A stretch of DNA of 64,000 bases from a virus: positions 8,677-72,676 of IMG/VR virus record IMGVR_UViG_3300042923_000319; one strand, written 5' to 3'. The notes under the pieces are model-generated. The model was not told where the DNA came from. It did not search any database and saw nothing but the letters and a program-made list of their open reading frames with translations. Shown here one piece after another: positions 39,753 to 49,610 of the stretch (position 1 is the first letter of the stretch; every line of letters starts with the position of its first letter). The position numbers and the translations under genes were made by a program.

Positions 39753-40480
39753 TTTACCATAAAACACTTACATAAGTGTATCATCAGAAAAACAAATGAC
39801 AAAACACTGATATCAATCAGAAAAACAAATAGCAAGTATATGGTAAATTACATAGCTCTACACCATTGATTTCATTGGGTTCATAGGTATCATAAGTTTT
39901 AACTATGGCTATCATAAAAATTTAGTATGGTAAAAACATCAAAAATAGGGTGCAAAGGTTCCTAAATCTGACCATTACTATGTAGGGGTTAAACAAGTGG
40001 TACTAGGGTATATCAATGAAGAGCTTAAGGGATACTTAGGATAACCTAAAATATAATCATAATAAATCGTAACGAGTGAAACGAGGTTACGGAGATATAC
40101 GTAAACGTATATCTCAACTCATCGCTTACGCTTGAGTTATTCTTAATCAAATAAATATTGACCAGACTTAGAACAGAGCCTAAGATATACTTTGGTAAGC
40201 TTTAGTCCAATATAGTTATTCTTATGAAATCCGCTTCGCAGTGAACATAAGTTAATCTATAGTATATTAAAGTGATTCAAAGTAACTACTTAGGTATATA
40301 ACCACATCAGCTTATATTTATTGATAATGCGTTCTAGACGAAGCGTAGCGAAGTGATTGTCATCAGACAATCTAACCCACTTTAGCTATATATTGAATAC
40401 AACCAAATAAACATTTTTTAAATACACCTTTGATAATTCATTGGTGTATTTTTTATGTTCAAAAACAGGAGGTTATAACA

Positions 40481-41344
40481 ATAATAGATTTAGAACAGCT
40501 TGTTCAAACAACATGGTGCTCTGCAAATAAAGATTTGTATGTGAGCAAAGGATATGTTTACACAAAGATGTTTGATAAATTTTATGTCCATGCTAAAGAC
40601 TTACCATTAAAATATGCTGTCAAAGTAAAATATACTTGCAATGCTTGTAGAGAAGAATTTGAAATTAATTACTATAGTTTTAATATTAGTAATAGTTGTT
40701 TATGTAACCATTGTGCCACTAAAACTATCGTAGCGCAAAAGCTAAAAAAGCCATTTAGTGATGTCAGAGCAGCGTTTTTAGCTCGTGGGTATATATTAAT
40801 ATCACCTAAAGGCGATTACAGGAATAGCACAAGTAAATTAGTATGCACATGTAAAGTACATGGGGAATTCACCACAACGTATCAATCTATTTCTATGGGT
40901 CAAGGTTGTCCGCAATGCGCCATAGATAACCATAAAGGCTTAGGCAATCCAAACTACAAAGGTGGCATTACCGAAATCGCAAAATATCTCCGCAACCAAT
41001 TATCGCCTTGGATTCAACAGCAGTTACAACGAGCTGGTTGCAAATGCGAAATAACTGGAAAAACAGGAATTTTAAATGTGCATCATATGTATTCTTTTAA
41101 AAACATTCTCGATAAAACTATGGAAGAACTTAATATTGATATTCGTCCAAACATAGGAAACTATAGCGGAGATGAACTTCAACTAATTACAGTAAATTTC
41201 CTCAAGAACAACATTCTTCTAGCCAAACCCATAGTAATGCTAGAATCAATTCATAGAGATTTCCACAAGTTTTGCGGAGGAACAGCTAAAGAAACCACCT
41301 ATGCACAACTAAGAGAATTCAAGAAACAACTCTTATCAGCATAA
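40481..41344 (+). CDS. zinc-ribbon HNH-like (homing) endonuclease, probable ATA start
   Basis: CxxC repeats; CEITG...VHHMYSF...IHRDFH; paralog of 53327..54193. Confidence 0.72.
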   Translation: MIDLEQLVQTTWCSANKDLYVSKGYVYTKMFDKFYVHAKDLPLKYAVKVKYTCNACREEFEINYYSFNISNSCLCNHCATKTIVAQKLKKPFSDVRAAFLARGYILISPKGDYRNSTSKLVCTCKVHGEFTTTYQSISMGQGCPQCAIDNHKGLGNPNYKGGITEIAKYLRNQLSPWIQQQLQRAGCKCEITGKTGILNVHHMYSFKNILDKTMEELNIDIRPNIGNYSGDELQLITVNFLKNNILLAKPIVMLESIHRDFHKFCGGTAKETTYAQLREFKKQLLSA

Positions 41345-41380: not shown

Positions 41381-42019
41381 ATGTCAGAACCAAAGAAAAG
41401 ACCAGGTAGTAAAGCCAGACCTCCATTGAATACATCAGCGAAATCACCATTAGCTGGACTCGCAGTTAACCGTGTTGACCTATATGGGCTACAAGAGGTT
41501 GTCCGAAGATGTAGAGAAGAATATCATTGGGGTTCGATGAAGATCAAAAAATACATCGAAGATAACAACTTGCTTCCAGAAGGCAAAGATATAGCGAATA
41601 TGAGTATCTATCGTTGGTACAAAAAGAACGTTGACCAACAAGAGGATGACACTACTACAGATTTTGCTGTTGACACTGCTGCTCAAGAGAGGTCAATGCT
41701 CAGGGCAATTAACGACAGTATTGATACGATAACTGAATGCCTTGATAACATTAGTGATACAAACAATGTAAAGGACATTAAAGACTTGGTGCTTGCTCAA
41801 GAAAAGTTAATAGCTCGTAAGCAATGTCTCAATGCCACTATAGGCACAACACAAGAAAAAATATACACATACGATAGATTTGCTGAGATCGTCAACACAA
41901 TGCTTGACGTATCGAAATCATTCGGAATTGATTTATATGCAGCTATCAAAGCTAGAATCGAAGCTGACCCAATGTTAGCTGAGGGGTTCCGTAGAATTGA
42001 GTCCAGTAAGCAAAAATAG
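41381..42019 (+). CDS. candidate terminase small subunit
   Basis: HTH-like N-half (NMSIYRWY) plus coiled coil; position at the head of the late region. Confidence 0.5.
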   Translation: MSEPKKRPGSKARPPLNTSAKSPLAGLAVNRVDLYGLQEVVRRCREEYHWGSMKIKKYIEDNNLLPEGKDIANMSIYRWYKKNVDQQEDDTTTDFAVDTAAQERSMLRAINDSIDTITECLDNISDTNNVKDIKDLVLAQEKLIARKQCLNATIGTTQEKIYTYDRFAEIVNTMLDVSKSFGIDLYAAIKARIEADPMLAEGFRRIESSKQK

Positions 42020-42091
42020 CCAACCCATACAACTACATTGGAAAACTACAAAACACGCTCAAAAGGTCACACAGAGAGCACAGGAGGAATA

Positions 42092-42466
42092 ATGGAACAC
42101 ATTGAGAATGTTATAGCGTTCATGGATACACCTTATGATTTGCGTGACGAACAAATAAAGGATCGATGTATTGTCTATAGAGCTGACATGGTGCGTAGCG
42201 ACACAATATCGATGAGAGTCATGGGTATTGGCAGTAAAATCTGTGGTATCTCATTTAAAGGGCAAAGACCAAGCAGAGTATTAATCAAGGAACCAACTAT
42301 AAACACTCAGACAGAACTCAAGCAGTACATTAATTGGCTATCAAAAGAAGTATTGACATGCGCTAGTAATGACTGTGAATTCACCTATGGAACCAACTAT
42401 ACATCAACGAAATTCACCGGGCGTAAAGAGTTCAGTGAATGGCTATCTAGGGTGCGCCAATGCTAG
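42092..42466 (+). CDS. protein resembling a fragment of the terminase ATPase domain
   Basis: GIGSKICGISFKGQRPSRVLIKE...NWLSKEV vs TerL GTGSKIRGMAKRGRRPGIFIMDE...SWLTKAV. Confidence 0.6.
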   Translation: MEHIENVIAFMDTPYDLRDEQIKDRCIVYRADMVRSDTISMRVMGIGSKICGISFKGQRPSRVLIKEPTINTQTELKQYINWLSKEVLTCASNDCEFTYGTNYTSTKFTGRKEFSEWLSRVRQC

Positions 42467-42771
42467 TCTTATTAATCACCGACTCAAACTCTCATTTCTT
42501 CGACGATGCCAACGTTATACCAACAGATATTTTAATGCTTCGACGCTCTACCGATGACCTATCCAATGTATCCGACACTGACGGCAATGTTCCAGACAAA
42601 GTTATTATTGATGCTGAAGCAAATGTTGATTTCCAAAGATACGTTGATTTAGCAAAGACACTCAAAGATGACGCAGAAATAATCTATAGAATTTCTGGTG
42701 TAAATCGAATAGCAACAAGGAATTTGTTCATAGAAATGTTAGAAATAATTTTAGGGAAAAGAGGAATGTAA
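42460..42771 (+). CDS. hypothetical protein with a Walker-B-like PDKVIID segment
   Basis: Coupled ORF with similar size and architecture to the preceding gene. Confidence 0.55.
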   Translation: MLVLLITDSNSHFFDDANVIPTDILMLRRSTDDLSNVSDTDGNVPDKVIIDAEANVDFQRYVDLAKTLKDDAEIIYRISGVNRIATRNLFIEMLEIILGKRGM

Positions 42772-42774
42772 ATA

Positions 42775-43062
42775 ATGGCAGCGATATCAACAGCAACACC
42801 AATACAGATTAACGGGAGCATTACGGCTTCAACTGACACAGAAGCAACGATAACAGCAACAGAAATGCTCGTGGGTAGTGTTTACTATACATTCGTTATA
42901 CCAAAGACATTCACAGTAGCAACCACAGACTACTCAACGACAGCACTAAGTCCATCCGAAGAAGCAGTCGCAGTAAAGCTAGCAACTGGCACAACGCTAC
43001 AATCGAATTTAACACAGATTGAAAAATTGGCATCAACGAGTTTAGCACAGAAATTAGCATGA
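42775..43062 (+). CDS. Thr/Ala/Ser-rich protein, possibly virion-associated
   Basis: Amino-acid composition; RBS AGAGG. Confidence 0.55.
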   Translation: MAAISTATPIQINGSITASTDTEATITATEMLVGSVYYTFVIPKTFTVATTDYSTTALSPSEEAVAVKLATGTTLQSNLTQIEKLASTSLAQKLA

Positions 43063-43253
43063 TGGAAGACCAATACAGACCACCGAATGTAACGTTAGAA
43101 TCTTATGATTGCGGTAGATTCAAGGTATTTATCGATGGTAAACATATGGAAACTGTACAGAAATTCAACATATCTGGTGGTATTGGTGAATGTTCATTAG
43201 TTAAACTTGAGTTTCTAGCGGATGTAAATATTAAATAAATCGTTGGAGGTACA

Positions 43254-43508
43254 ATGATACCAAAAGGTACAATCATAAAATGTCCAGAGTGTGGCACTAA
43301 ACTTTATAAGTACACCGCAGATATAACTGGTGATATGAATATGGTTATTGTACACATGCAATCAATGTTTTATTATGGTAAACAACCAAAGTTAGACATG
43401 AGTAGTTTAACAAGACAACATTGTTATAAGTGTGGTCATTCATTTGATATGCGTGATTTAGAAAGAGATGTTTACATGAAATTCAAGTACAACACGGAGG
43501 TACAATGA
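43254..43508 (+). CDS. zinc-ribbon protein
   Basis: CPECG...CYKCG. Confidence 0.6.
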   Translation: MIPKGTIIKCPECGTKLYKYTADITGDMNMVIVHMQSMFYYGKQPKLDMSSLTRQHCYKCGHSFDMRDLERDVYMKFKYNTEVQ

Positions 43509-43867
43509 ATAATCCAATTACAAACCTAAGACTAGCTGCTGAAAAGTTCAAATTGGACTATGATAAACAATCATTTTGCGAAGTCGAGCTTGAATGTTAC
43601 AAAAAGGGCATCGAAATAGAAGATGACATAATCCCTACTATCGATTATATAAAAGAAATATGTAAGAAAACTGGGTATGAGCTATGGATTAAAAAGGGTG
43701 GACTTAAATTCTACAAAGCTATATCGAGACAGACCTTTGATTTACCATTTATGTTACTCGAAGAAGGCGATATTATAACCTTTGGTACTAGTACTGGTAT
43801 TTCCTATAAGTATACTGTGTTTGCTACTAATTATGTTGATGGCAGACTTAAGGTGACTGTTGAATGA
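43505..43867 (+). CDS. hypothetical protein
   Basis: RBS GGAGG. Confidence 0.6.
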   Translation: MNNPITNLRLAAEKFKLDYDKQSFCEVELECYKKGIEIEDDIIPTIDYIKEICKKTGYELWIKKGGLKFYKAISRQTFDLPFMLLEEGDIITFGTSTGISYKYTVFATNYVDGRLKVTVE

Positions 43868-44161
43868 GCAAGGAAGAACAAGATCGTCACAAGCGGAAAA
43901 CCATAAAGAAACCACGGAATATCAAGAAATACATCAAAGAAAAGCTCAATAAACTTGAGTACATGGAGGAAATCTATGGAAAACGATGAATTAATCGAGG
44001 TTATCGATGATCTACGTGAAGAAAATGAATACTTAAGAGATACATTGATTGTAGCATTGGTTAAACTGTCGAAATATCAGCAGGAAGAGATCGATGGCTA
44101 TGATAAATACTTCGCTGGATTCGGCAATAGGTCTAACTAAGGTGTCTACTGATGTGTAGAC

Positions 44162-44430
44162 AATGTAACTGGAGTAGCTACCAGTGAGGGCGTGGCGGTA
44201 GTCACAAATACTGTGATAGCGTGGATGGGGCAATTGCAGACTTTATTACAGACGCTGCATCGACACGGTGGCAGCGATGGTGTGCGGCGATTCGGGTTGG
44301 GGCTGTGCATATTCTAGTCTTAACCTTCATTGGTTGACATTGCCTGGGGTTACACCTGGGTTACATAGCGGGGTGGAAATCTGCGGATGACACTTTGGAT
44401 ACTCGGATGCGTCTGAGTATCCTTACGCTG
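44162..44430 (+). ncRNA. candidate structured non-coding RNA upstream of the tRNAs
   Basis: GC-rich with no credible ORF; end pairing ATGTAACT/GGTTACAT, internal GGGCAAT/ATTGCCT, and several hairpins including GGATACTCGGA-tgcg-TCTGAGTATCC. Confidence 0.5.
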
Positions 44431-44434
44431 ATAT

Positions 44435-44509
44435 GATTCGATAGTTCAATGGTAGAACAGCGGTCTCCAAAACCGTTAGATCAAGGTTCAAATCCTTGTC
44501 GGATCGCCA
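44435..44509 (+). tRNA. tRNA-Trp(CCA)
   Basis: Full cloverleaf, anticodon loop CTCCAAA, T-loop TTCAAAT, encoded CCA end. Confidence 0.92.
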
Positions 44510-44511
44510 AT

Positions 44512-44585
44512 GCTTCCTTAGTTTAACGGTAGAACGAGGATTTTGTAAATCTTTAGCGATAGTTCAACTCTATCAGGAAGCTCCA
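44512..44585 (+). tRNA. tRNA-Thr(TGT)
   Basis: GCTTCCT/AGGAAGC acceptor stem, anticodon loop TTTGTAA, encoded CCA end. Confidence 0.88.
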
Positions 44586-44619
44586 AAATAAAACTAAATA
44601 TTAACTAAGATATAAACCG

Positions 44620-44653
44620 AGAGCACCAGTGAGAAATCGCTGGTGCTCTTATT
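44620..44653 (+). terminator. hairpin after the tRNA pair
   Basis: AGAGCACCAGTGA-gaaa-TCGCTGGTGCTCT. Confidence 0.7.
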
Positions 44654-44670
44654 AATCTAAGGAGGAAACA

Positions 44671-44928
44671 ATGTTAAAGATTGAAAAACTTCAAGAAGCT
44701 TTAGAGGCAACAAGAGGTAGAGGTAATACGACACATTTGCTAAAGTCGGTTCAAGGAACCAATGTTGACTTGTTGGTTGATACTGAATGCACTAGAGAGA
44801 TTTTAGGACATACAAATGTAGTCTCGTTTAAATCGTACAGTCCCGACAGAGCATTTGTGCTAGATAACAACGTTATACAAGATGCAATTAATGAAGCATT
44901 AGAACTAATCGCTAGATTAAGAAAATAG
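44671..44928 (+). CDS. small protein with degenerate P-loop-like RGRGNTT
   Basis: RBS AGGAGG; RGRGNTT...AFVLDN. Confidence 0.6.
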   Translation: MLKIEKLQEALEATRGRGNTTHLLKSVQGTNVDLLVDTECTREILGHTNVVSFKSYSPDRAFVLDNNVIQDAINEALELIARLRK

Positions 44929-45099
44929 CTTGAGTATATACTCCGAGGGACTCATGAGAAATCATGGGTCTTTTTTGTATGCACTCAAGTGCAGAGCGTT
45001 GGGTTGATCCCCTGATGCTAGGGTGTTTGGTACGTCTCCGCTGAACACCCTAAAACAATTTTATGGAGACACAGAATAAAACGAATGGGGCGATGTTAA

Positions 45100-46083
45100 A
45101 TGACAAAAGAATTACAAGTGTTTAAACAGCAGGAAGTTTTAGGAAAAATGTTCACAATTTATGGTGATGCAGAAAATCCATTATTCTTAGCTAAAGAGGT
45201 TGCTGAGTGGATTGATTATAACAAAGACAAAATCGGGCAAATGCTTAAGACTATTGACGAGGAAGAAAAAGAAACCTCACCGATATTTTATAGCGGTCAG
45301 GTTAGAGATATGTGGTTTATCAGTGAAGATGGTCTTTATGAAGTACTTATGCAATCACATAAACCAATCGCTAAACAATTTAAGAAACAAGTCAAATTTA
45401 TCCTTAAGACCATCCGCAAAACTGGTCACTACGAAACACCAGAATACAAAATTATGATAGAAACCCAAAATGAACTTAAAGAAATGAAAACAATGTTAAT
45501 TGAAAGTGGTGTCATAGGAGCTTATGTGAATCCAACCCACTTATTTTATAGACTCAATGTATCATACAAAATAACTACTAATGATAATAGTCACAGGGGT
45601 ATCCACGAAGCCATCGGTAATTACTTTGGAGTTAACGTTCCATATAGTGATCAAATCCCAGTTACATTAAGAGACTACTTGATCGACAAAGTTGGTATCG
45701 AAGAAATTCGTAAGTTTATCGTAGGAATCCAATCGGGTAGAATTGTTAAATCTAAACGTGGTAACTATGTAAACCTCAATGGGTTCGGTAGTAATAACTA
45801 TGAGTGGTCAAAAGTAGTTGATGAGTTTGATCACAAATGTGCTTACTGCGGAATATCTGAAGATAAAACTAAAATGATTCCAGAGCATATCGTTGCTCAA
45901 TCAATAATGTCTGAGGAACATCCAGAATTATGCGACCTTGTTGGTTCTATCGTTCCAGCCTGTGGATGTTGCAATGGCTCCAAGAATACTTCTGATATGG
46001 AAACATGGTTCCGCAAGCAATCATTCTTCTCAGAGTATAGACTCCAGAAAATCCAAAGACACATCAAAAAATATGAACTTTAG
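45100..46083 (+). CDS. BRO-N domain plus C-terminal HNH nuclease
   Basis: NPLFLAKEVAEWI...SEDGLYEVLMQSHKPIAKQFK; CAYCG...EHIV...VPACGCCNGSK. Confidence 0.85.
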   Translation: MTKELQVFKQQEVLGKMFTIYGDAENPLFLAKEVAEWIDYNKDKIGQMLKTIDEEEKETSPIFYSGQVRDMWFISEDGLYEVLMQSHKPIAKQFKKQVKFILKTIRKTGHYETPEYKIMIETQNELKEMKTMLIESGVIGAYVNPTHLFYRLNVSYKITTNDNSHRGIHEAIGNYFGVNVPYSDQIPVTLRDYLIDKVGIEEIRKFIVGIQSGRIVKSKRGNYVNLNGFGSNNYEWSKVVDEFDHKCAYCGISEDKTKMIPEHIVAQSIMSEEHPELCDLVGSIVPACGCCNGSKNTSDMETWFRKQSFFSEYRLQKIQRHIKKYEL

Positions 46084-46130
46084 AAGCCACCGAACAAACG
46101 GTGGTTATTTTTTATTTATAGGAGGATTCA

Positions 46131-46670
46131 ATGACTTGTATCGTTGGCTTTATTGATAAAGGTAATGTTTATATCGGCGGAGATTCAGCGTCATCCAACC
46201 AATCAATCATAAGGACTCGCAAAGCACCAAAGGTATTTACTAATGGCGAATTTCTAATTGGCACAAGTGGTTCATTTCGTATGAGTGGCCTTATTAGATA
46301 TTCATTCAATCCACCTAAATATATTGAAGCTGCACATGGAGATATCTGTAGATATATGTGTACAGCTTTTGTTGATTCGTTACGTAACTGCTTGACAAGC
46401 GGTGGATTCGCGAAGGTTTCATGCAATGAAGAGACTGGCGGATTTTTCTTAGTTGGATTCAAGGGAAAGTTGTTCACAGTCGAGGCTGATTACCAAGTTG
46501 AAGAATGTGTTGATCAATACACTTCTATTGGTTCTGGAGAATCATACGCCCTCGGTTCGCTCTTTAGCTCAACCAAAGAAACACCAAAAGAAAAGATAGA
46601 AGATGCATTAAAATGTGCTGAATACTTTAATCCATTCGTTAGAAGTCCATTCACAATACTGAAGATATAG
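46131..46670 (+). CDS. HslV/proteasome-beta-like Ntn protease
   Basis: N-terminal Thr (M-TCIVG), IGGDSA, SIGSGESYALG. Confidence 0.75.
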   Translation: MTCIVGFIDKGNVYIGGDSASSNQSIIRTRKAPKVFTNGEFLIGTSGSFRMSGLIRYSFNPPKYIEAAHGDICRYMCTAFVDSLRNCLTSGGFAKVSCNEETGGFFLVGFKGKLFTVEADYQVEECVDQYTSIGSGESYALGSLFSSTKETPKEKIEDALKCAEYFNPFVRSPFTILKI

Positions 46671-46683
46671 GAGGTGAGAACCA

Positions 46684-48294
46684 ATGGATGACATAGTACT
46701 ACATGACTTATTCCTCGGTTCAGACGAAACAAGACCAGATGAAGATCAGCCACTCAAAGAACAATGTAGATATTCACTAAAACTATTCTGTGAAACCTAT
46801 CTCAAACATTGGTTCTACGCTCCATGGTGTGGTTTTCACTTAGAAATTATCCAGATGCTCGAAGATTTAACCTTTGCTAAAACACGAAGAAAACAATACA
46901 CAGCAGTGGCAAGTCCTAGAAAGCATGCCAAGACAACCATAGTGTCCAAGGCTTATTCATTATGGCTTATATGTTACAAACATGAGCCAAACATCGTACT
47001 TATCGCTGATACCATCGGTCAATCGTGTGAGTACTTAGATGACGTTAAGAATGAGATTGAATCCAATGATTTACTCATAGCTGACTTCGGTAATCTCATG
47101 GGTAAACTGTGGAGAAACAATCAGATCACAACGGCAAACGAAGTCACTATAACATGCAAAGGTACTGGCAGTAAAATTCGTGGGATGGCTAAGAGAGGTC
47201 GTCGTCCAGGTATTTTCATAATGGATGAATTGGAAAATGATGAGTTCGTAGAAAACGCCAATATCCGTAAGAAACTTCGCTCATGGCTCACTAAGGCTGT
47301 CATTCCATCATCCTGTGAAACTGGTAAGTTCTTCATTATCGGAACCATCATGCATGAAGATAGTCTTTTGAATAATCTTCTGAACAGCAAAGAGTTCTCT
47401 TATTGGAAGCGATATTTTTACCAAGCAGTCCAAGAGTTCAGCGAAAGTCCTCTGTGGGATGAATGGGTAGCCATCATGGAAAACGAGGAATCCAATGATT
47501 CCGAGGAACAAGCCTACCAGTTCTATAAGGATCACAGAGATGAGATGCTGAAGGGTGTTAAGGCTCTCTGGATGGACAACTATGATGATTACTACTATGA
47601 CATGATGGTAATGAAGTGGTCTGACCCAGATGCATTCTCAAGTGAAGAAATGAATGTCGCGATATCACCAGAAAATCAAACGTTTACCGCAGAGTTGCTT
47701 GATAGTGTTACATTCGATGATATTCCATGCAAGATAACCGAGATAAAAATTGGTGTAGACCCTAGCCTTGGCAAGAGTAAGAAAAGCGATCTATCGTCAA
47801 TCTGTGCTGTAGCCAGAGGTGAAAACGGCAAACTCTACGTTATTGACGTTGACGCCAAGCGCAGGAAGGTTGATATTCTCGTCGAGGATGTCTTTAGTAT
47901 GGCTATGAAATACAATGATAAATTATCGAAAATCAATATTGAAGCCAACGGATTGCAACATTTGTTCTTAGAACAATTTGTGATGGCTAGTGAGAAAACT
48001 GGCGTTTACTTTGCATACGAAGGTATCAAAACAGATAGCAATAAGGAAATCAAGATTCAAGCATTGGCTCCTAAGATGAAGCAAGGCTCACTTAAGATAC
48101 ACCGTAGACTCAAGACATTACGCAATGAATTACTGGCGTTTCCAAAAGGCAAGACTGATGACATCATGGATTCTGTTTGTTTGGCTATTGATGGTGCGTT
48201 CACATCTTCTGGATTCTGCTTCACATCATTGCCAGGATCAAGAGAGTCTCATCGACACGTAGGTATCAATAATTTTCTTAATAGGAGGAGGTGA
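46684..48294 (+). CDS. terminase large subunit
   Basis: PRKHAKTT, IFIMDE, GTIMHED, GVDPS, FPKGKTDDIMDS. Confidence 0.92.
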   Translation: MDDIVLHDLFLGSDETRPDEDQPLKEQCRYSLKLFCETYLKHWFYAPWCGFHLEIIQMLEDLTFAKTRRKQYTAVASPRKHAKTTIVSKAYSLWLICYKHEPNIVLIADTIGQSCEYLDDVKNEIESNDLLIADFGNLMGKLWRNNQITTANEVTITCKGTGSKIRGMAKRGRRPGIFIMDELENDEFVENANIRKKLRSWLTKAVIPSSCETGKFFIIGTIMHEDSLLNNLLNSKEFSYWKRYFYQAVQEFSESPLWDEWVAIMENEESNDSEEQAYQFYKDHRDEMLKGVKALWMDNYDDYYYDMMVMKWSDPDAFSSEEMNVAISPENQTFTAELLDSVTFDDIPCKITEIKIGVDPSLGKSKKSDLSSICAVARGENGKLYVIDVDAKRRKVDILVEDVFSMAMKYNDKLSKINIEANGLQHLFLEQFVMASEKTGVYFAYEGIKTDSNKEIKIQALAPKMKQGSLKIHRRLKTLRNELLAFPKGKTDDIMDSVCLAIDGAFTSSGFCFTSLPGSRESHRHVGINNFLNRRR

Positions 48295-48299
48295 TAAAA

Positions 48300-49610
48300 C
48301 TGAAATGGTATCAAAAATTATTCTCAGCAAGACCTAGATCAATCCCTGCTCCAACAGCAGAAACATCCGAAGCAGACTCATGGGGACTTAATAAGTTGCT
48401 CCCACGCAGATATCGAACCTATGGGTTAAACAAGAATAAGCAAAGGCAATTACGACAGTTATCTCGTAGCGGTATCATAAGGCGTGGTATTGAGCGAATT
48501 AAGCGTGGCGTAAAGAACCTCGATTATGAGCTTGAAATCCAAGGTAAGATGAGTAACAAACAACAGGAACAATTAAGAGCAGCCATTGATACAGTTCTGC
48601 AATCACCAAATATAATCCATGATTATGATGCGTTTATCGACATGATACTTGAGGATTTGATAGTGCTTGATGCAGGAGTATTTAATGTAGTTAAGGGTGG
48701 CAATCCAATGCGACCTCTCTTTTTATACCCTGTTGACTCTATGACAATTGAGATACTACAACCGTATGACTTTACTAACCCCAATGGTGATCGATATGTA
48801 CAACGAGCATCATGGGCTATCGACGAGAAAACGTTTAGTACAACCGATATGGCATATCTACAGATCAACCACTTTACTGATACACCGTATGGCTTAAGTC
48901 CAATTGAGAAACTATGGCGATATCTTAACTACTTTATGGATGCTCTTGATAATGCTTCTGATATCGCATCTGCTGATACACCAAAATTCATAGTCGGTCT
49001 TAAGAATGCCGAAGATGGAAAACTCAAGAAATTCCAAGAATACATGCTTAATGAAATCGAAGGAACTGGACACATACCGATAGTTGGCGGTGAGGTTGAT
49101 AGTAAGCAAATAGGAGCTATCAATAGTGATTCATTATTCCTTGAATGGCAAAAGTTCTTACTGACACTCGTCGCTAAATGCTTTGACTTACCAGAGTCAT
49201 TCTTTATTACTGCTGATGTTAATGACCGCAATAACTTATCTGAGGTTGAACAGCAGGTACTCATGGAAGCTGTTAAACCTTATGCAAAGGTTATTCAAAG
49301 GGCTATTAATGTAAACGTCATACAGGCTATGGGAATTTACAATGTTAAATTCAAGTTTAAATATGACGAAACAGAAACAGAGAAGAAAACCAAGGAAGAC
49401 AGAATCAGTAACAAATATTTACGTGGTGTTATTACTCAGAATCAAGCATTGGTTGAACTTGGTTATCAATTGAGCACATCGAAATACGCTGATTTAACCA
49501 TAACTGAAGCCAAGGCTAAAATCAATAAAGACTTTGCTGTAAACACTGGCGGATTTAACGGTCAAGGTTCAGCAAAAGACAATAGTAATCCAGAAACTAA
49601 GACGGGTTAA
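48300..49610 (+). CDS. portal protein (probable CTG start; GTG 48291 lies within the RBS)
   Basis: Follows TerL; LYPVDSMTI, PYGLSPIE. Confidence 0.85.
   Translation: MKWYQKLFSARPRSIPAPTAETSEADSWGLNKLLPRRYRTYGLNKNKQRQLRQLSRSGIIRRGIERIKRGVKNLDYELEIQGKMSNKQQEQLRAAIDTVLQSPNIIHDYDAFIDMILEDLIVLDAGVFNVVKGGNPMRPLFLYPVDSMTIEILQPYDFTNPNGDRYVQRASWAIDEKTFSTTDMAYLQINHFTDTPYGLSPIEKLWRYLNYFMDALDNASDIASADTPKFIVGLKNAEDGKLKKFQEYMLNEIEGTGHIPIVGGEVDSKQIGAINSDSLFLEWQKFLLTLVAKCFDLPESFFITADVNDRNNLSEVEQQVLMEAVKPYAKVIQRAINVNVIQAMGIYNVKFKFKYDETETEKKTKEDRISNKYLRGVITQNQALVELGYQLSTSKYADLTITEAKAKINKDFAVNTGGFNGQGSAKDNSNPETKTG

What the first reader, a model, noticed from the sequence alone, without database searches (positions are those of the whole stretch)
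42092..44928. Mini-proteins resembling fragments of the terminase ATPase, encoded between terS and terL
Seen: 42092..42466 contains MGIGSKICGISFKGQRPSRVLIKE...INWLSKEVL, aligning by eye with this phage's TerL KGTGSKIRGMAKRGRRPGIFIMDE...RSWLTKAVI, with the Walker B Asp lost. 42460..42771 has an analogous DGNVPDKVIIDAE, and 44671..44928 has a Walker-A-like RGRGNTT plus FVLDN; these two resemblances are weaker. All have RBSs or translational coupling and intact frames. Established: Avs/AVAST NLR-like defences sense the terminase ATPase fold. Inference: catalytically dead terminase mimics acting as decoys or inhibitors of terminase-sensing immunity or satellite hijacking, or as packaging regulators.
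Basis: partly seen in the sequence, partly recalled or inferred. Interest (0 to 1): 0.75.

Follow-up and report, generated by a model that had tools for sequence, protein, structure and literature searches.

The report
Small terminase-derived protein in a phage
One of the three small genes flagged is a real, conserved, enzymatically dead offshoot of the phage's DNA-packaging ATPase, while the other two show no such resemblance; what the offshoot does is still untested.

Summary
The window is most of a 72.7-kb soil phage genome. ORF1 (42092..42466, 124 aa) really is homologous to the central ATPase core of the phage's large terminase, TerL (46684..48294). BLASTP gives E 2e-5. A TerL-family HMM hits only TerL and ORF1 among 578 frames of the window (E 3.5e-7; next best 1.3). 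Profile against profile gives 97.5 % probability, E 7e-12.

ORF1 is not a stray fragment. It has five small relatives (113-167 aa, 23-30 % identical to it in the alignment). They share its boundaries and deletions and form one group apart from 42 TerLs.

The family lacks Walker A, the lid and the nuclease domain. The Walker B Asp and the G-T motif are not conserved. A Gly, an Arg-Pro pair, a Glu and a Trp of TerL are kept in 6 of 6 members.

The other two ORFs (42460..42771 and 44671..44928) show no TerL similarity.

The function is untested. I favour protein mimicry of a TerL surface, in packaging control or in phage-host or phage-phage conflict. The decoy idea is neither supported nor excluded.

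The parts
42092..42466 (+). ORF1, the 'mini-TerL': a 124-aa protein homologous to TerL residues about 101-246. It lacks TerL 111-142 and a loop after Walker B, and has no Walker A, lid or nuclease domain.
   Evidence: homology. (five small relatives). (AF2 with a mixed alignment: pLDDT 84.9). (Atlas structure rows).
42082..42087 (+). Shine-Dalgarno-like AGGAGG, 4 nt upstream of the ORF1 ATG
   Evidence: Read directly from the sequence.
46684..48294 (+). Resident full-length large terminase (TerL, 536 aa), the family from which ORF1's fold derives
   Evidence: phrog_38 at E 1.6e-83. Terminase_6C at E 2.3e-8. 43 relatives at E <= 1e-20.
41381..42019 (+). Its identity is unverified. It is in the same frame as ORF1, separated from it by a single TAG.
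   Evidence: No family hit; PDB best E 0.38. Frame relation. Such in-frame neighbours are common here: 7 pairs among 80 frames of at least 100 aa.
42460..42771 (+). ORF2 (103 aa). Its start overlaps ORF1's stop. It is not TerL-like and its function is unknown.
   Evidence: negative. (overlap).
44671..44928 (+). 85-aa ORF with a P-loop-like RGRGNTT string. It is not TerL-like by any test run here.
   Evidence: negative. (ribosome-binding site).

Best explanation
SHOWN. ORF1 is a real gene for a member of a small, previously unnamed family of 113-167-aa phage proteins. The family descends from the ATPase core of a large terminase. It keeps the segment that in TerL runs from the strand after the Walker A helix, through the beta-hairpin and the Walker B strand, to the following helix and strand. 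It has lost Walker A, an internal helix, the lid and the whole nuclease domain. The Walker B Asp and the G-T motif are not conserved. It therefore cannot be an ATPase or a nuclease.

INFERRED (structure). By the textbook ASCE strand order 5-1-4-3-2 (recalled), the retained strands 2, 3 and 4 are neighbours. The piece can then fold as a self-contained half-sheet with a free edge where the P-loop strand would lie.

INFERRED (mechanism, about 0.35). It works by protein mimicry. It presents a TerL surface, including the invariant Gly-x6-Arg-Pro loop just upstream of the Walker B strand. In some terminases the trans-acting arginine finger lies in that region (recalled for P74-26; not mapped here). 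It would dock onto full-length TerL, whether its own, a rival phage's or a satellite-redirected one, as a non-catalytic cap. That would modulate or poison assembly of the ATPase ring.

Its place in a gene-flux region, its narrow distribution and its long branches fit an accessory, conflict-related role better than a core packaging role.
For: Homology to TerL:
- BLASTP E 2e-5.
- TerL HMM: E 3.5e-7 for the ORF1 frame against 1.3 for the next of 578 frames.
- hhalign: 93.8 %; family against family 97.5 %, E 7e-12 over 96 columns.
- The mini-family HMM gave a domain hit in 34 of 43 TerL proteins.
- In 155 fetched loci, all 84 of its hits lay in frames of at least 300 aa, none in a smaller frame; 60 of the 84 had E <= 0.01.
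- In the phage's own genome it hits only ORF1 and TerL.
- A second member, P0048, has its only tblastn hit among 50,697 phage records inside the TerL gene of Bacillus phage BalMu-1 (E 0.2, weak).

A real family:
- Exhaustive phmmer found P0045-P0048; a profile search added P0049.
- Lengths are 113-167 aa, with seven invariant columns.
- The six form one side of a branch against 42 TerLs (SH-aLRT 99 in the group table, 94 in the drawing). Their terminal branches are 0.23-0.97, against 0-0.13 in the resident TerL clade.

Loss of catalysis:
- Kept in 6 of 6: the TerL G167, R174, P175 and W201 columns, and Glu at the D182 column.
- Not kept: R166 in 2 of 6; the D181 column reads K, E, F, E, N, E; G220 and T221 are not conserved.
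- The alignment starts after Walker A.

Structure:
- AF2 with the mixed alignment: pLDDT 84.9, pTM 0.79.
- The ESM Atlas's own model: 6 of 10 structure rows are terminase clusters at TM 0.49-0.53.
- BFVD: rank 1 and 4 more of the 50 rows are named terminases, all at E >= 0.1.

Accessory setting: contigs of related strains in soil runs join across neighbouring genes:
- 43238->43496, side 89.
- 44418->44592, the two tRNAs, side 30.
- 46112->46667, the proteasome-like gene, side 30.
Against: - No result here shows binding to anything.
- Foldseek against the PDB found no terminase. Its best rows were unrelated proteins at E >= 0.088.
- The confident AF2 model used an alignment that contained TerLs, so its likeness to terminases is not independent. 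The single-sequence model was poor (pLDDT 43.9).
- The Atlas rows also include Lactamase_B and DUF3419 clusters at the same TM.
- The family has only six known members. Their genomic context could not be seen, so neither synteny with terL nor purifying selection at the DNA level is shown.
- The long branches make the tree placement unsure (warns of this).
- Equating R59 with an arginine finger rests on recall, not on a structural alignment. HK97 terminase has no trans finger at all (PMC7617512, passages).
- The conserved residues could simply be fold-stabilising.
Confidence: 0.4

Rival explanations
1. Immune decoy or anti-sensor. The mini-protein occupies the TerL-binding pocket of Avs1-3-like STAND sensors without allowing activation, or it soaks up another TerL-binding host or satellite factor.
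For: - It is a TerL-like fold without activity.
- It sits in a variable accessory region, has a narrow distribution and has long branches, all typical of arms-race genes.
- Avs1-3 recognise the TerL fold by direct binding (PMC13581612, passages).
- KpAvs2 is predicted to contact the TerL ATPase domain (PMC11564622).
Against: - Avs sensors are described as enveloping the target core through broad shape-complementary interfaces (PMC13581612). A half-domain of 124 aa lacking the P-loop side and the nuclease domain would fill little of such a pocket.
- The one known small TerL-ATPase-like phage protein, Ksap2, activates Avs2 rather than inhibiting it.
- The anti-Avs proteins in the EVADES passages I read (ORF55, a ligase; ORF83, Smf-like) are not TerL mimics.
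- The host and its defence repertoire are unknown.
Confidence: 0.18
2. An exapted scaffold with a function unrelated to packaging or TerL recognition. The half-Rossmann piece would be reused as, for example, a nucleic-acid- or protein-binding module of an early or accessory pathway.
For: - The catalytic and most TerL-specific motifs are gone.
- The neighbours are a mix of unrelated accessory genes: zinc ribbon, tRNAs, Bro-N/HNH-like and proteasome-like.
- There is a family-specific invariant Cys95. The Asp16 column is also invariant in the family, but its counterpart in TerL was not checked.
Against: The residues kept in 6 of 6 members are those invariant (G167, R174, W201) or nearly invariant (P175; an acidic residue at the 182 column) in 42 TerLs. 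The gene lies between the packaging-module genes rather than in the early region.
Confidence: 0.27
3. A non-functional relic: a decaying piece of a duplicated or horizontally acquired terL that happens to keep an open frame.
For: - HNH-type endonuclease genes, which can promote local rearrangement, flank the region.
- No expression data were obtained.
Against: - Six members at 23-30 % identity to ORF1 keep the same N- and C-terminal limits and the same loss of the TerL 111-142 segment. All lack a loop after Walker B, although ORF1 keeps four more residues there than the other five.
- They form one group, and each is an intact protein of 113-167 aa.
- ORF1 has a strong ribosome-binding site.
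- No other terL-like debris lies beside it in any frame.
Confidence: 0.07
4. The C-terminal extension of the upstream 212-aa protein, made by occasional read-through of the single TAG at 42017-42019. This would give a TerS-like protein carrying a TerL-like domain.
For: The two ORFs are in one frame, separated by one TAG and a hydrophilic Thr/Ser/Gly/Lys-rich stretch of 23 residues.
Against: - In-frame neighbours separated by one stop are common in this window: 7 pairs among 80 frames of at least 100 aa.
- ORF1 has its own AGGAGG and ATG.
- Its relatives are free-standing small proteins.
- No suppressor tRNA was found; the only tRNAs are Trp-CCA and Thr-TGT.
Confidence: 0.03

Closest known systems
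Phage large terminase (TerL) ATPase domain: phrog_38 / Mu-like clade, with solved relatives T7 gp19 (4bij), the terminase chain of 8dgc, and T4 gp17 (2o0h)
   Same: Clear profile-level homology over about 96 columns. The G167, R174, P175 and W201 columns are kept in 6 of 6 members. The resident TerL profile matches the solved terminases.
   Different: There is no Walker A, no conserved Walker B Asp, no G-T motif, no lid and no nuclease domain. It is a quarter of the length. It forms a separate group from 42 TerLs and cannot be a packaging enzyme.
Ksap2 (Bas60_220), a small phage protein that activates KpAvs2 (Bechon et al. 2024, PMC11564622; passages read)
   Different: The authors report no sequence homology of Ksap2 to any terminase, whereas ORF1 has significant sequence and profile homology. 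I could not compare the two directly. Ksap2 is a trigger of immunity, not a shown inhibitor.
Shorter in-frame products of T4 gene 17 (gp17' and gp17''), made from internal starts (recalled, not looked up)
   Same: These are N-terminally shortened terminase polypeptides that coexist with full-length TerL.
   Different: They are made from the terL gene itself and keep the C-terminal part. ORF1 is a separate, highly diverged gene that keeps only the middle of the ATPase domain.
Satellite-encoded packaging hijackers such as SaPI Ppi or PICI Rpp, which bind phage TerS (recalled, not looked up)
   Same: The concept is the same: a small protein that interferes with terminase assembly by protein-protein binding during conflict between mobile elements.
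   Different: Those proteins target or mimic the small subunit and are encoded by satellites. ORF1 derives from the large subunit and is encoded by the phage itself.

Membership tests
Large terminase (TerL), functional enzyme | Walker A P-loop (TerL 78-85, PRKHAKTT in the resident protein) | tested here: not met
   The family-to-family alignment starts at TerL residue 101. No row of the mini-family covers the P-loop columns in register.
Large terminase (TerL), functional enzyme | Walker B acidic pair (TerL D181-D/E182) and the following Glu | tested here: not met
   The D181 column reads K, E, F, E, N, E in the six members. Glu is kept at the 182 column in 6 of 6. The E184-N185-D186 loop is absent in ORF1.
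Large terminase (TerL), functional enzyme | Invariant G220-T221 after the third core strand (coupling motif) | tested here: not met
   The columns read T, N, K, G, G, K and N, D, N, R, Q, S.
Large terminase (TerL), functional enzyme | C-terminal RNase H-like nuclease domain (Terminase_6C) | tested here: not met
   ORF1 is 124 aa with no Terminase_6C hit. TerL has one at E 2.3e-8.
TerL ATPase-core homologue (evolutionary descent only) | Significant sequence or profile similarity to the ATPase core, in register | tested here: met
   The register was checked.
TerL ATPase-core homologue (evolutionary descent only) | Structural superposition on a solved TerL ATPase domain | tested here: inconclusive
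   Foldseek against the PDB found no terminase. BFVD and Atlas rows include terminases only at weak scores. The VIA-align libraries were not available.
Mini-TerL family (unnamed; ORF1, P0045-P0049) | Free-standing protein of 113-167 aa with the conserved G-x6-R-P ... E ... W ... C pattern and the shared loss of the TerL 111-142 segment | tested here: met
   One group in the tree.
Anti-Avs or decoy protein | Binds or inhibits a TerL-sensing STAND (Avs1-3) | not testable with these tools
   The host and its sensors are unknown, and there is no assay. Only literature context is available.
Small terminase (TerS), for the neighbour 41381..42019 | Match to a TerS family or structure | tested here: inconclusive
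   0 families in Pfam, PHROGs and NCBIfam; best PDB match E 0.38. Position and size are compatible with TerS but prove nothing.

The most novel reading that the evidence does not exclude
Some soil phages carry a domesticated, catalytically dead half of their own packaging ATPase. It acts as a molecular mimic in conflict. Either it blinds host NLR-like sensors that recognise the terminase fold, or it caps and poisons the terminase rings of competing phages or satellites. It would be the first TerL-derived counter-measure, and a ready-made probe of which TerL surface is sensed or assembled.
Probability: 0.22. Interest if true: 0.85.

Novelty: new variant of a known kind. Interest (0 to 1): 0.55.

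Why it matters
Terminase is the most conserved protein of tailed phages and a main target of bacterial pattern-recognition immunity. A free-standing, inactive TerL derivative has been kept as its own gene across deep divergence. This shows that part of the ATPase core has a use beyond catalysis, most simply as a binding surface.

If it binds TerL, it offers a natural handle on ring assembly and subunit communication in packaging motors. If it binds a sensor, it would be a new class of anti-defence protein.

I found no description of such a family in three full-text searches, read as listings only. That is not proof that none exists.

The evidence also corrects the original finding: one gene, not three, is terminase-like.

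Tried and rejected
Relatives and their context:
- Close DNA or protein relatives were sought in phage records, IMG/VR, JGI metagenomes and GTDB genomes.
- Megablast of 41381-48294 found nothing.
- tblastn against phage records found nothing for ORF1, P0046 and P0049.
- The search for related loci with ORF1, TerL, P0046 and P0045 as single proteins found nothing.
- A degenerate motif scan of IMG/VR gave 0 matches.
- TerL-alignment scans gave 80, 74 and 4 loci. All are at most 37 % identical, except one 61 % fragment that lacks the upstream region.
- None of these 155 loci, nor 5 whole viral records, holds a small member of the family.

Complex prediction: complex prediction of TerL with the mini-family gave no answer (score 0.01). 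This is no evidence either way.

Expression: no RNA holder was listed.

Cover by related strains: the bin 42004-42337 carries only the depth of the identical contigs, while the TerL bins carry extra depth from relatives. A part without cover is not evidence, so I draw nothing from it. The joint 42516->42771 has a side of only 24 letters and is not used.

Structure:
- The single-sequence AF2 model was poor.
- Foldseek against the PDB gave no relevant hit.

Family libraries:
- Pfam, PHROGs and NCBIfam give ORF1 no terminase family.
- phrog_35887 (unknown function) matches 2 of 6 members weakly (best E 0.0034) and was not followed up.
- The PDB profile search with the mini-family gave nothing (best E 0.59).

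Other points set aside:
- The promoter and terminator scans were at chance level.
- The weak hit of the mini-family HMM to a 339-aa ORF upstream of TerL in L004 (E 0.027 and 0.0018) covers about 32 residues. It looks like the W..VlP motif of Bro-N-type proteins (recalled). I rejected it as a relative.
- P0042 (45 % coverage) was left out of TerL alignment A1. It was included in the 43 proteins.
Full report
SETTING. The window is bases 8677-72676 of a 72,676-bp virus record that CheckV rates complete. Soil metagenome runs from four studies hold it almost word for word. G+C is 33-41 %.

Gene order on the + strand from 40.4 to 50.6 kb:
- 40430..41344: an HNH-type endonuclease-like gene (phrog_681 at 1.3e-15, phrog_559 at 1e-11).
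- 42092..44140: a run of small ORFs.
- 44435-44585: tRNA-Trp and tRNA-Thr.
- 44671..44928: an 85-aa ORF.
- 45100..46083: a gene with a Bro-N domain (4.8e-13) and a weak HNH-like C-terminus.
- 46131..46670: a proteasome/HslV-like gene (PF00227 at 3.2e-5).
- 46684..48294: TerL (phrog_38 at 1.6e-83).
- 48291..49610: portal (PF04860 at 1.7e-24).

The TerL is only about 33 % identical to any cultured phage's. All 321 matching records are below 60 % identity, the best being Mu-like phages of Firmicutes and Pseudomonas.

THE OBSERVATION: ORF1.
- BLASTP of the 142-aa TTG-start form against TerL gives 26/94 identities and E 2e-5, pairing ORF1 54-135 with TerL 151-241.
- With TerL masked, this is TerL's best tblastn hit in all six frames of the window: E 0.006, next 0.13.
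- An HMM built from 42 TerLs was run against all 578 stop-to-stop frames of at least 40 aa. It scores TerL at 1e-218, the ORF1 frame at 3.5e-7 and nothing else better than 1.3.
- hhalign of the TerL profile against ORF1 gives 93.8 %, E 1.7e-7 over 90 columns.

The ATG at 42092 follows AGGAGG by 4 nt. The relatives' N-termini align to residues 4-13 of that form.

THE OBSERVATION: THE OTHER TWO ORFS. Neither stands up.
- ORF2 (42460..42771): BLASTP best E 12; hhalign 0.24 %; absent from the hits at E <= 50.
- 44671..44928: BLASTP best E 20; hhalign 1.07 %; E 28; no terminase among the ESM Atlas rows. Its only tblastn hits in phage records are at E 0.1, to an EccC-like translocase gene.

Both are intact ORFs with good start signals, but nothing makes them terminase-like.

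ORF1 IS A FAMILY, NOT A FRAGMENT. A word-indexed search found only ORF1 itself. An exhaustive phmmer search of 1.84 billion representatives found four small relatives:
- P0045: 115 aa.
- P0046: 123 aa.
- P0047: 167 aa.
- P0048: 113 aa.
Their E-values run from 5e-8 to 4e-4. No full-length TerL came up at E <= 1e-3. A profile search added P0049, 119 aa.

The six are 23-30 % identical to ORF1 in the alignment. P0046 is 41 % identical over the phmmer stretch. Seven columns are invariant: D16, G52, R59, P60, E67, W82 and C95 in ORF1 numbering.

The family profile against the TerL profile gives 97.5 %, E 7e-12 over 96 columns. The match now extends N-terminally, so that mini-protein residues 4-13 pair with the TerL strand at 101-110, and TerL 111-142 has no counterpart. 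MAFFT puts all 48 sequences in the same register.

The family HMM gave a domain hit in 34 of 43 TerLs. In 155 loci carrying distant TerLs, all 84 of its hits lay in frames of at least 300 aa (60 at E <= 0.01) and none in a small frame. In the phage's own genome it finds only ORF1 (7e-50) and TerL (4e-8).

In a quick maximum-likelihood tree of the 113 shared columns, the six form one side of a branch against all 42 TerLs (SH-aLRT 99 in the group table, 94 in the drawing). They do not nest in the resident TerL's clade. Their terminal branches are 0.23-0.97 against 0-0.13 for that clade. The program warns that such long branches make placement unsure.

The shared boundaries, the shared loss of the TerL 111-142 segment and intact frames in six deeply diverged members argue for one origin and long maintenance as a gene. 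They argue against independent decay of terL copies. No other terL-like debris lies nearby in any frame.

WHAT IS KEPT AND WHAT IS LOST.
- Kept in 6 of 6: the columns of TerL G167, R174, P175 and W201, and a Glu at the D182 column.
- Lost or variable: R166 (Arg in 2 of 6); the Walker B Asp D181 (K, E, F, E, N, E); the loop E184-N185-D186 (absent in ORF1); G220-T221; the segment around N128.
- Everything before residue 101, which includes Walker A, is absent. So is everything after about residue 246: the lid and the nuclease domain.

The T4 gp17 'VRGNS' stretch just upstream of its Walker B aligns with TerL R166-G167. The protein cannot bind or hydrolyse ATP in the way TerL does.

By the canonical ASCE strand order 5-1-4-3-2 (established knowledge, recalled), the retained strands 2, 3 and 4 are adjacent. 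A stable half-sheet is therefore plausible. AF2 with the mixed alignment predicts such an alpha/beta unit with pLDDT 84.9 and pTM 0.79, but that alignment contained TerLs. Without an alignment the model was poor (pLDDT 43.9).

Structural searches are only weakly supportive.
- Foldseek against the PDB found no terminase.
- In BFVD, rank 1 and four other named rows of 50 are terminases. Rank 2 is an unnamed 488-aa protein with probability 0.99, TM 0.57 and rmsd 2.0 over 86 columns. No row has E <= 1e-3.
- The ESM Atlas's own model of this protein (pLDDT 0.58) is independent of my alignment. Six of its 10 structure rows are terminase clusters at TM 0.49-0.53, alongside Lactamase_B and DUF3419 rows.

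CONTEXT. Contigs of related strains in the same soil runs join precisely across neighbouring genes:
- 43238->43496 removes the 84-aa zinc-ribbon ORF (side 89, two runs).
- 44418->44592 removes both tRNAs (side 30, three runs).
- 46112->46667 removes the proteasome-like gene (side 30, two runs).

The stretch between the terS-like gene and terL is therefore a gene-flux region. The tool warns that joints with sides under 30 letters, or at low likeness, can be spurious. Two of these three are at the limit.

ORF1 is in the same frame as the upstream 212-aa ORF, with one TAG between them. Such pairs are common here, 7 among 80 long frames, so I give this little weight.

MECHANISM. Nothing here measures function.

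Shown: descent from TerL, loss of catalytic motifs, and maintenance as a small gene.

Inferred: the protein acts through a surface it inherited from TerL. My preferred version (about 0.35) is that it docks on full-length TerL as a non-catalytic cap, using the conserved Gly-x6-Arg-Pro loop before the Walker B strand.
- Trans-acting arginine fingers that reach into the neighbour's ATP site are documented for phi29, P74-26 and D6E terminases, but not for HK97 (PMC7617512, passages).
- Placing R59 at such a finger is my recollection of the P74-26 position. It was not tested.

The rivals, with my odds:
- An exapted scaffold with an unrelated role: 0.27.
- A relic: 0.07.
- A read-through extension of the upstream protein: 0.03.

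On the decoy:
- KpAvs2 is predicted to contact the TerL ATPase domain (PMC11564622).
- The one small phage protein reported to resemble a TerL ATPase domain, Ksap2, triggers Avs2.
- The anti-Avs proteins in the passages I read are a ligase and an Smf-like protein.

COMPARISON AND NOVELTY. ORF1 is a homologue of TerL but fails every test of being a terminase. The closest reported thing is Ksap2, which its authors found to lack sequence homology to terminases. I could not compare the two. Three full-text searches, read as listings only, turned up no description of free-standing TerL-derived mini-proteins. That is not proof of absence. Supplements that list Ksap2 homologues were closed.

I rate it a new variant of a known kind: inactive, truncated paralogues or mimics of a core viral protein.

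VERDICT.
- Interest 0.55.

Noticed in passing
window 46131..46670: A 179-aa proteasome-beta/HslV-like (Ntn-hydrolase) gene lies immediately upstream of terL (PF00227 at E 3.2e-5; weak NCBIfam hits to archaeal and bacterial proteasome beta and HslV). Contigs of related strains in two soil runs join across it (46112->46667, 7 other letters between, side 30).
   Followed up: partly
window 44435..44585: tRNA-Trp(CCA) and tRNA-Thr(TGT) sit inside the packaging module. Related contigs in three runs join across both (44418->44592). Depth in this bin is 2-5 times that of the neighbouring bins, probably from other organisms' tRNA genes.
   Followed up: partly
window 43254..43508: An 84-aa double CxxC zinc-ribbon ORF is precisely absent in related contigs of two runs (joint 43238->43496, side 89). 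This is a presence/absence polymorphism in the accessory stretch.
   Followed up: partly
window 41381..42466: The 212-aa terS-like ORF and ORF1 are in one frame, separated by a single TAG and a hydrophilic 23-residue stretch. In-frame neighbours are common in this window (7 pairs among 80 long frames), so this is probably chance.
   Followed up: yes
window 40430..41344 and 45100..46083: Two endonuclease-like genes flank the accessory stretch. One has a CapR domain, zinc ribbons and HNH-type PHROG hits. The other has a Bro-N domain and a weak HNH-like C-terminus (IscB HNH region, E 0.0039). HNH proteins next to terminase genes are known packaging cofactors in some cos phages (recalled).
   Followed up: no
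PHROGs family phrog_35887: This 98-position family of unknown function matches 2 of the 6 mini-TerL members weakly, almost end to end for ORF1 (best E 0.0034 among members; ORF1 E 0.019, residues 6-103 against profile 7-96). It may be a distant branch of the same family in cultured phages.
   Followed up: no
L004 8970..9986 (IMG/VR record, upstream of its TerL): A 339-aa ORF has a 32-residue stretch resembling the W..V.P.GS motif of the mini-family (E 0.027 among the loci; 0.0018 within that genome). I judged it a short-motif coincidence, Bro-N-like by recall.
   Followed up: partly
window 44620..44650: A 10-bp perfect hairpin (stem AGAGCACCAG) followed by a T-rich tail lies between the tRNAs and the 44671 ORF. 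It looks like a terminator, but the consensus scan did not list it.
   Followed up: no
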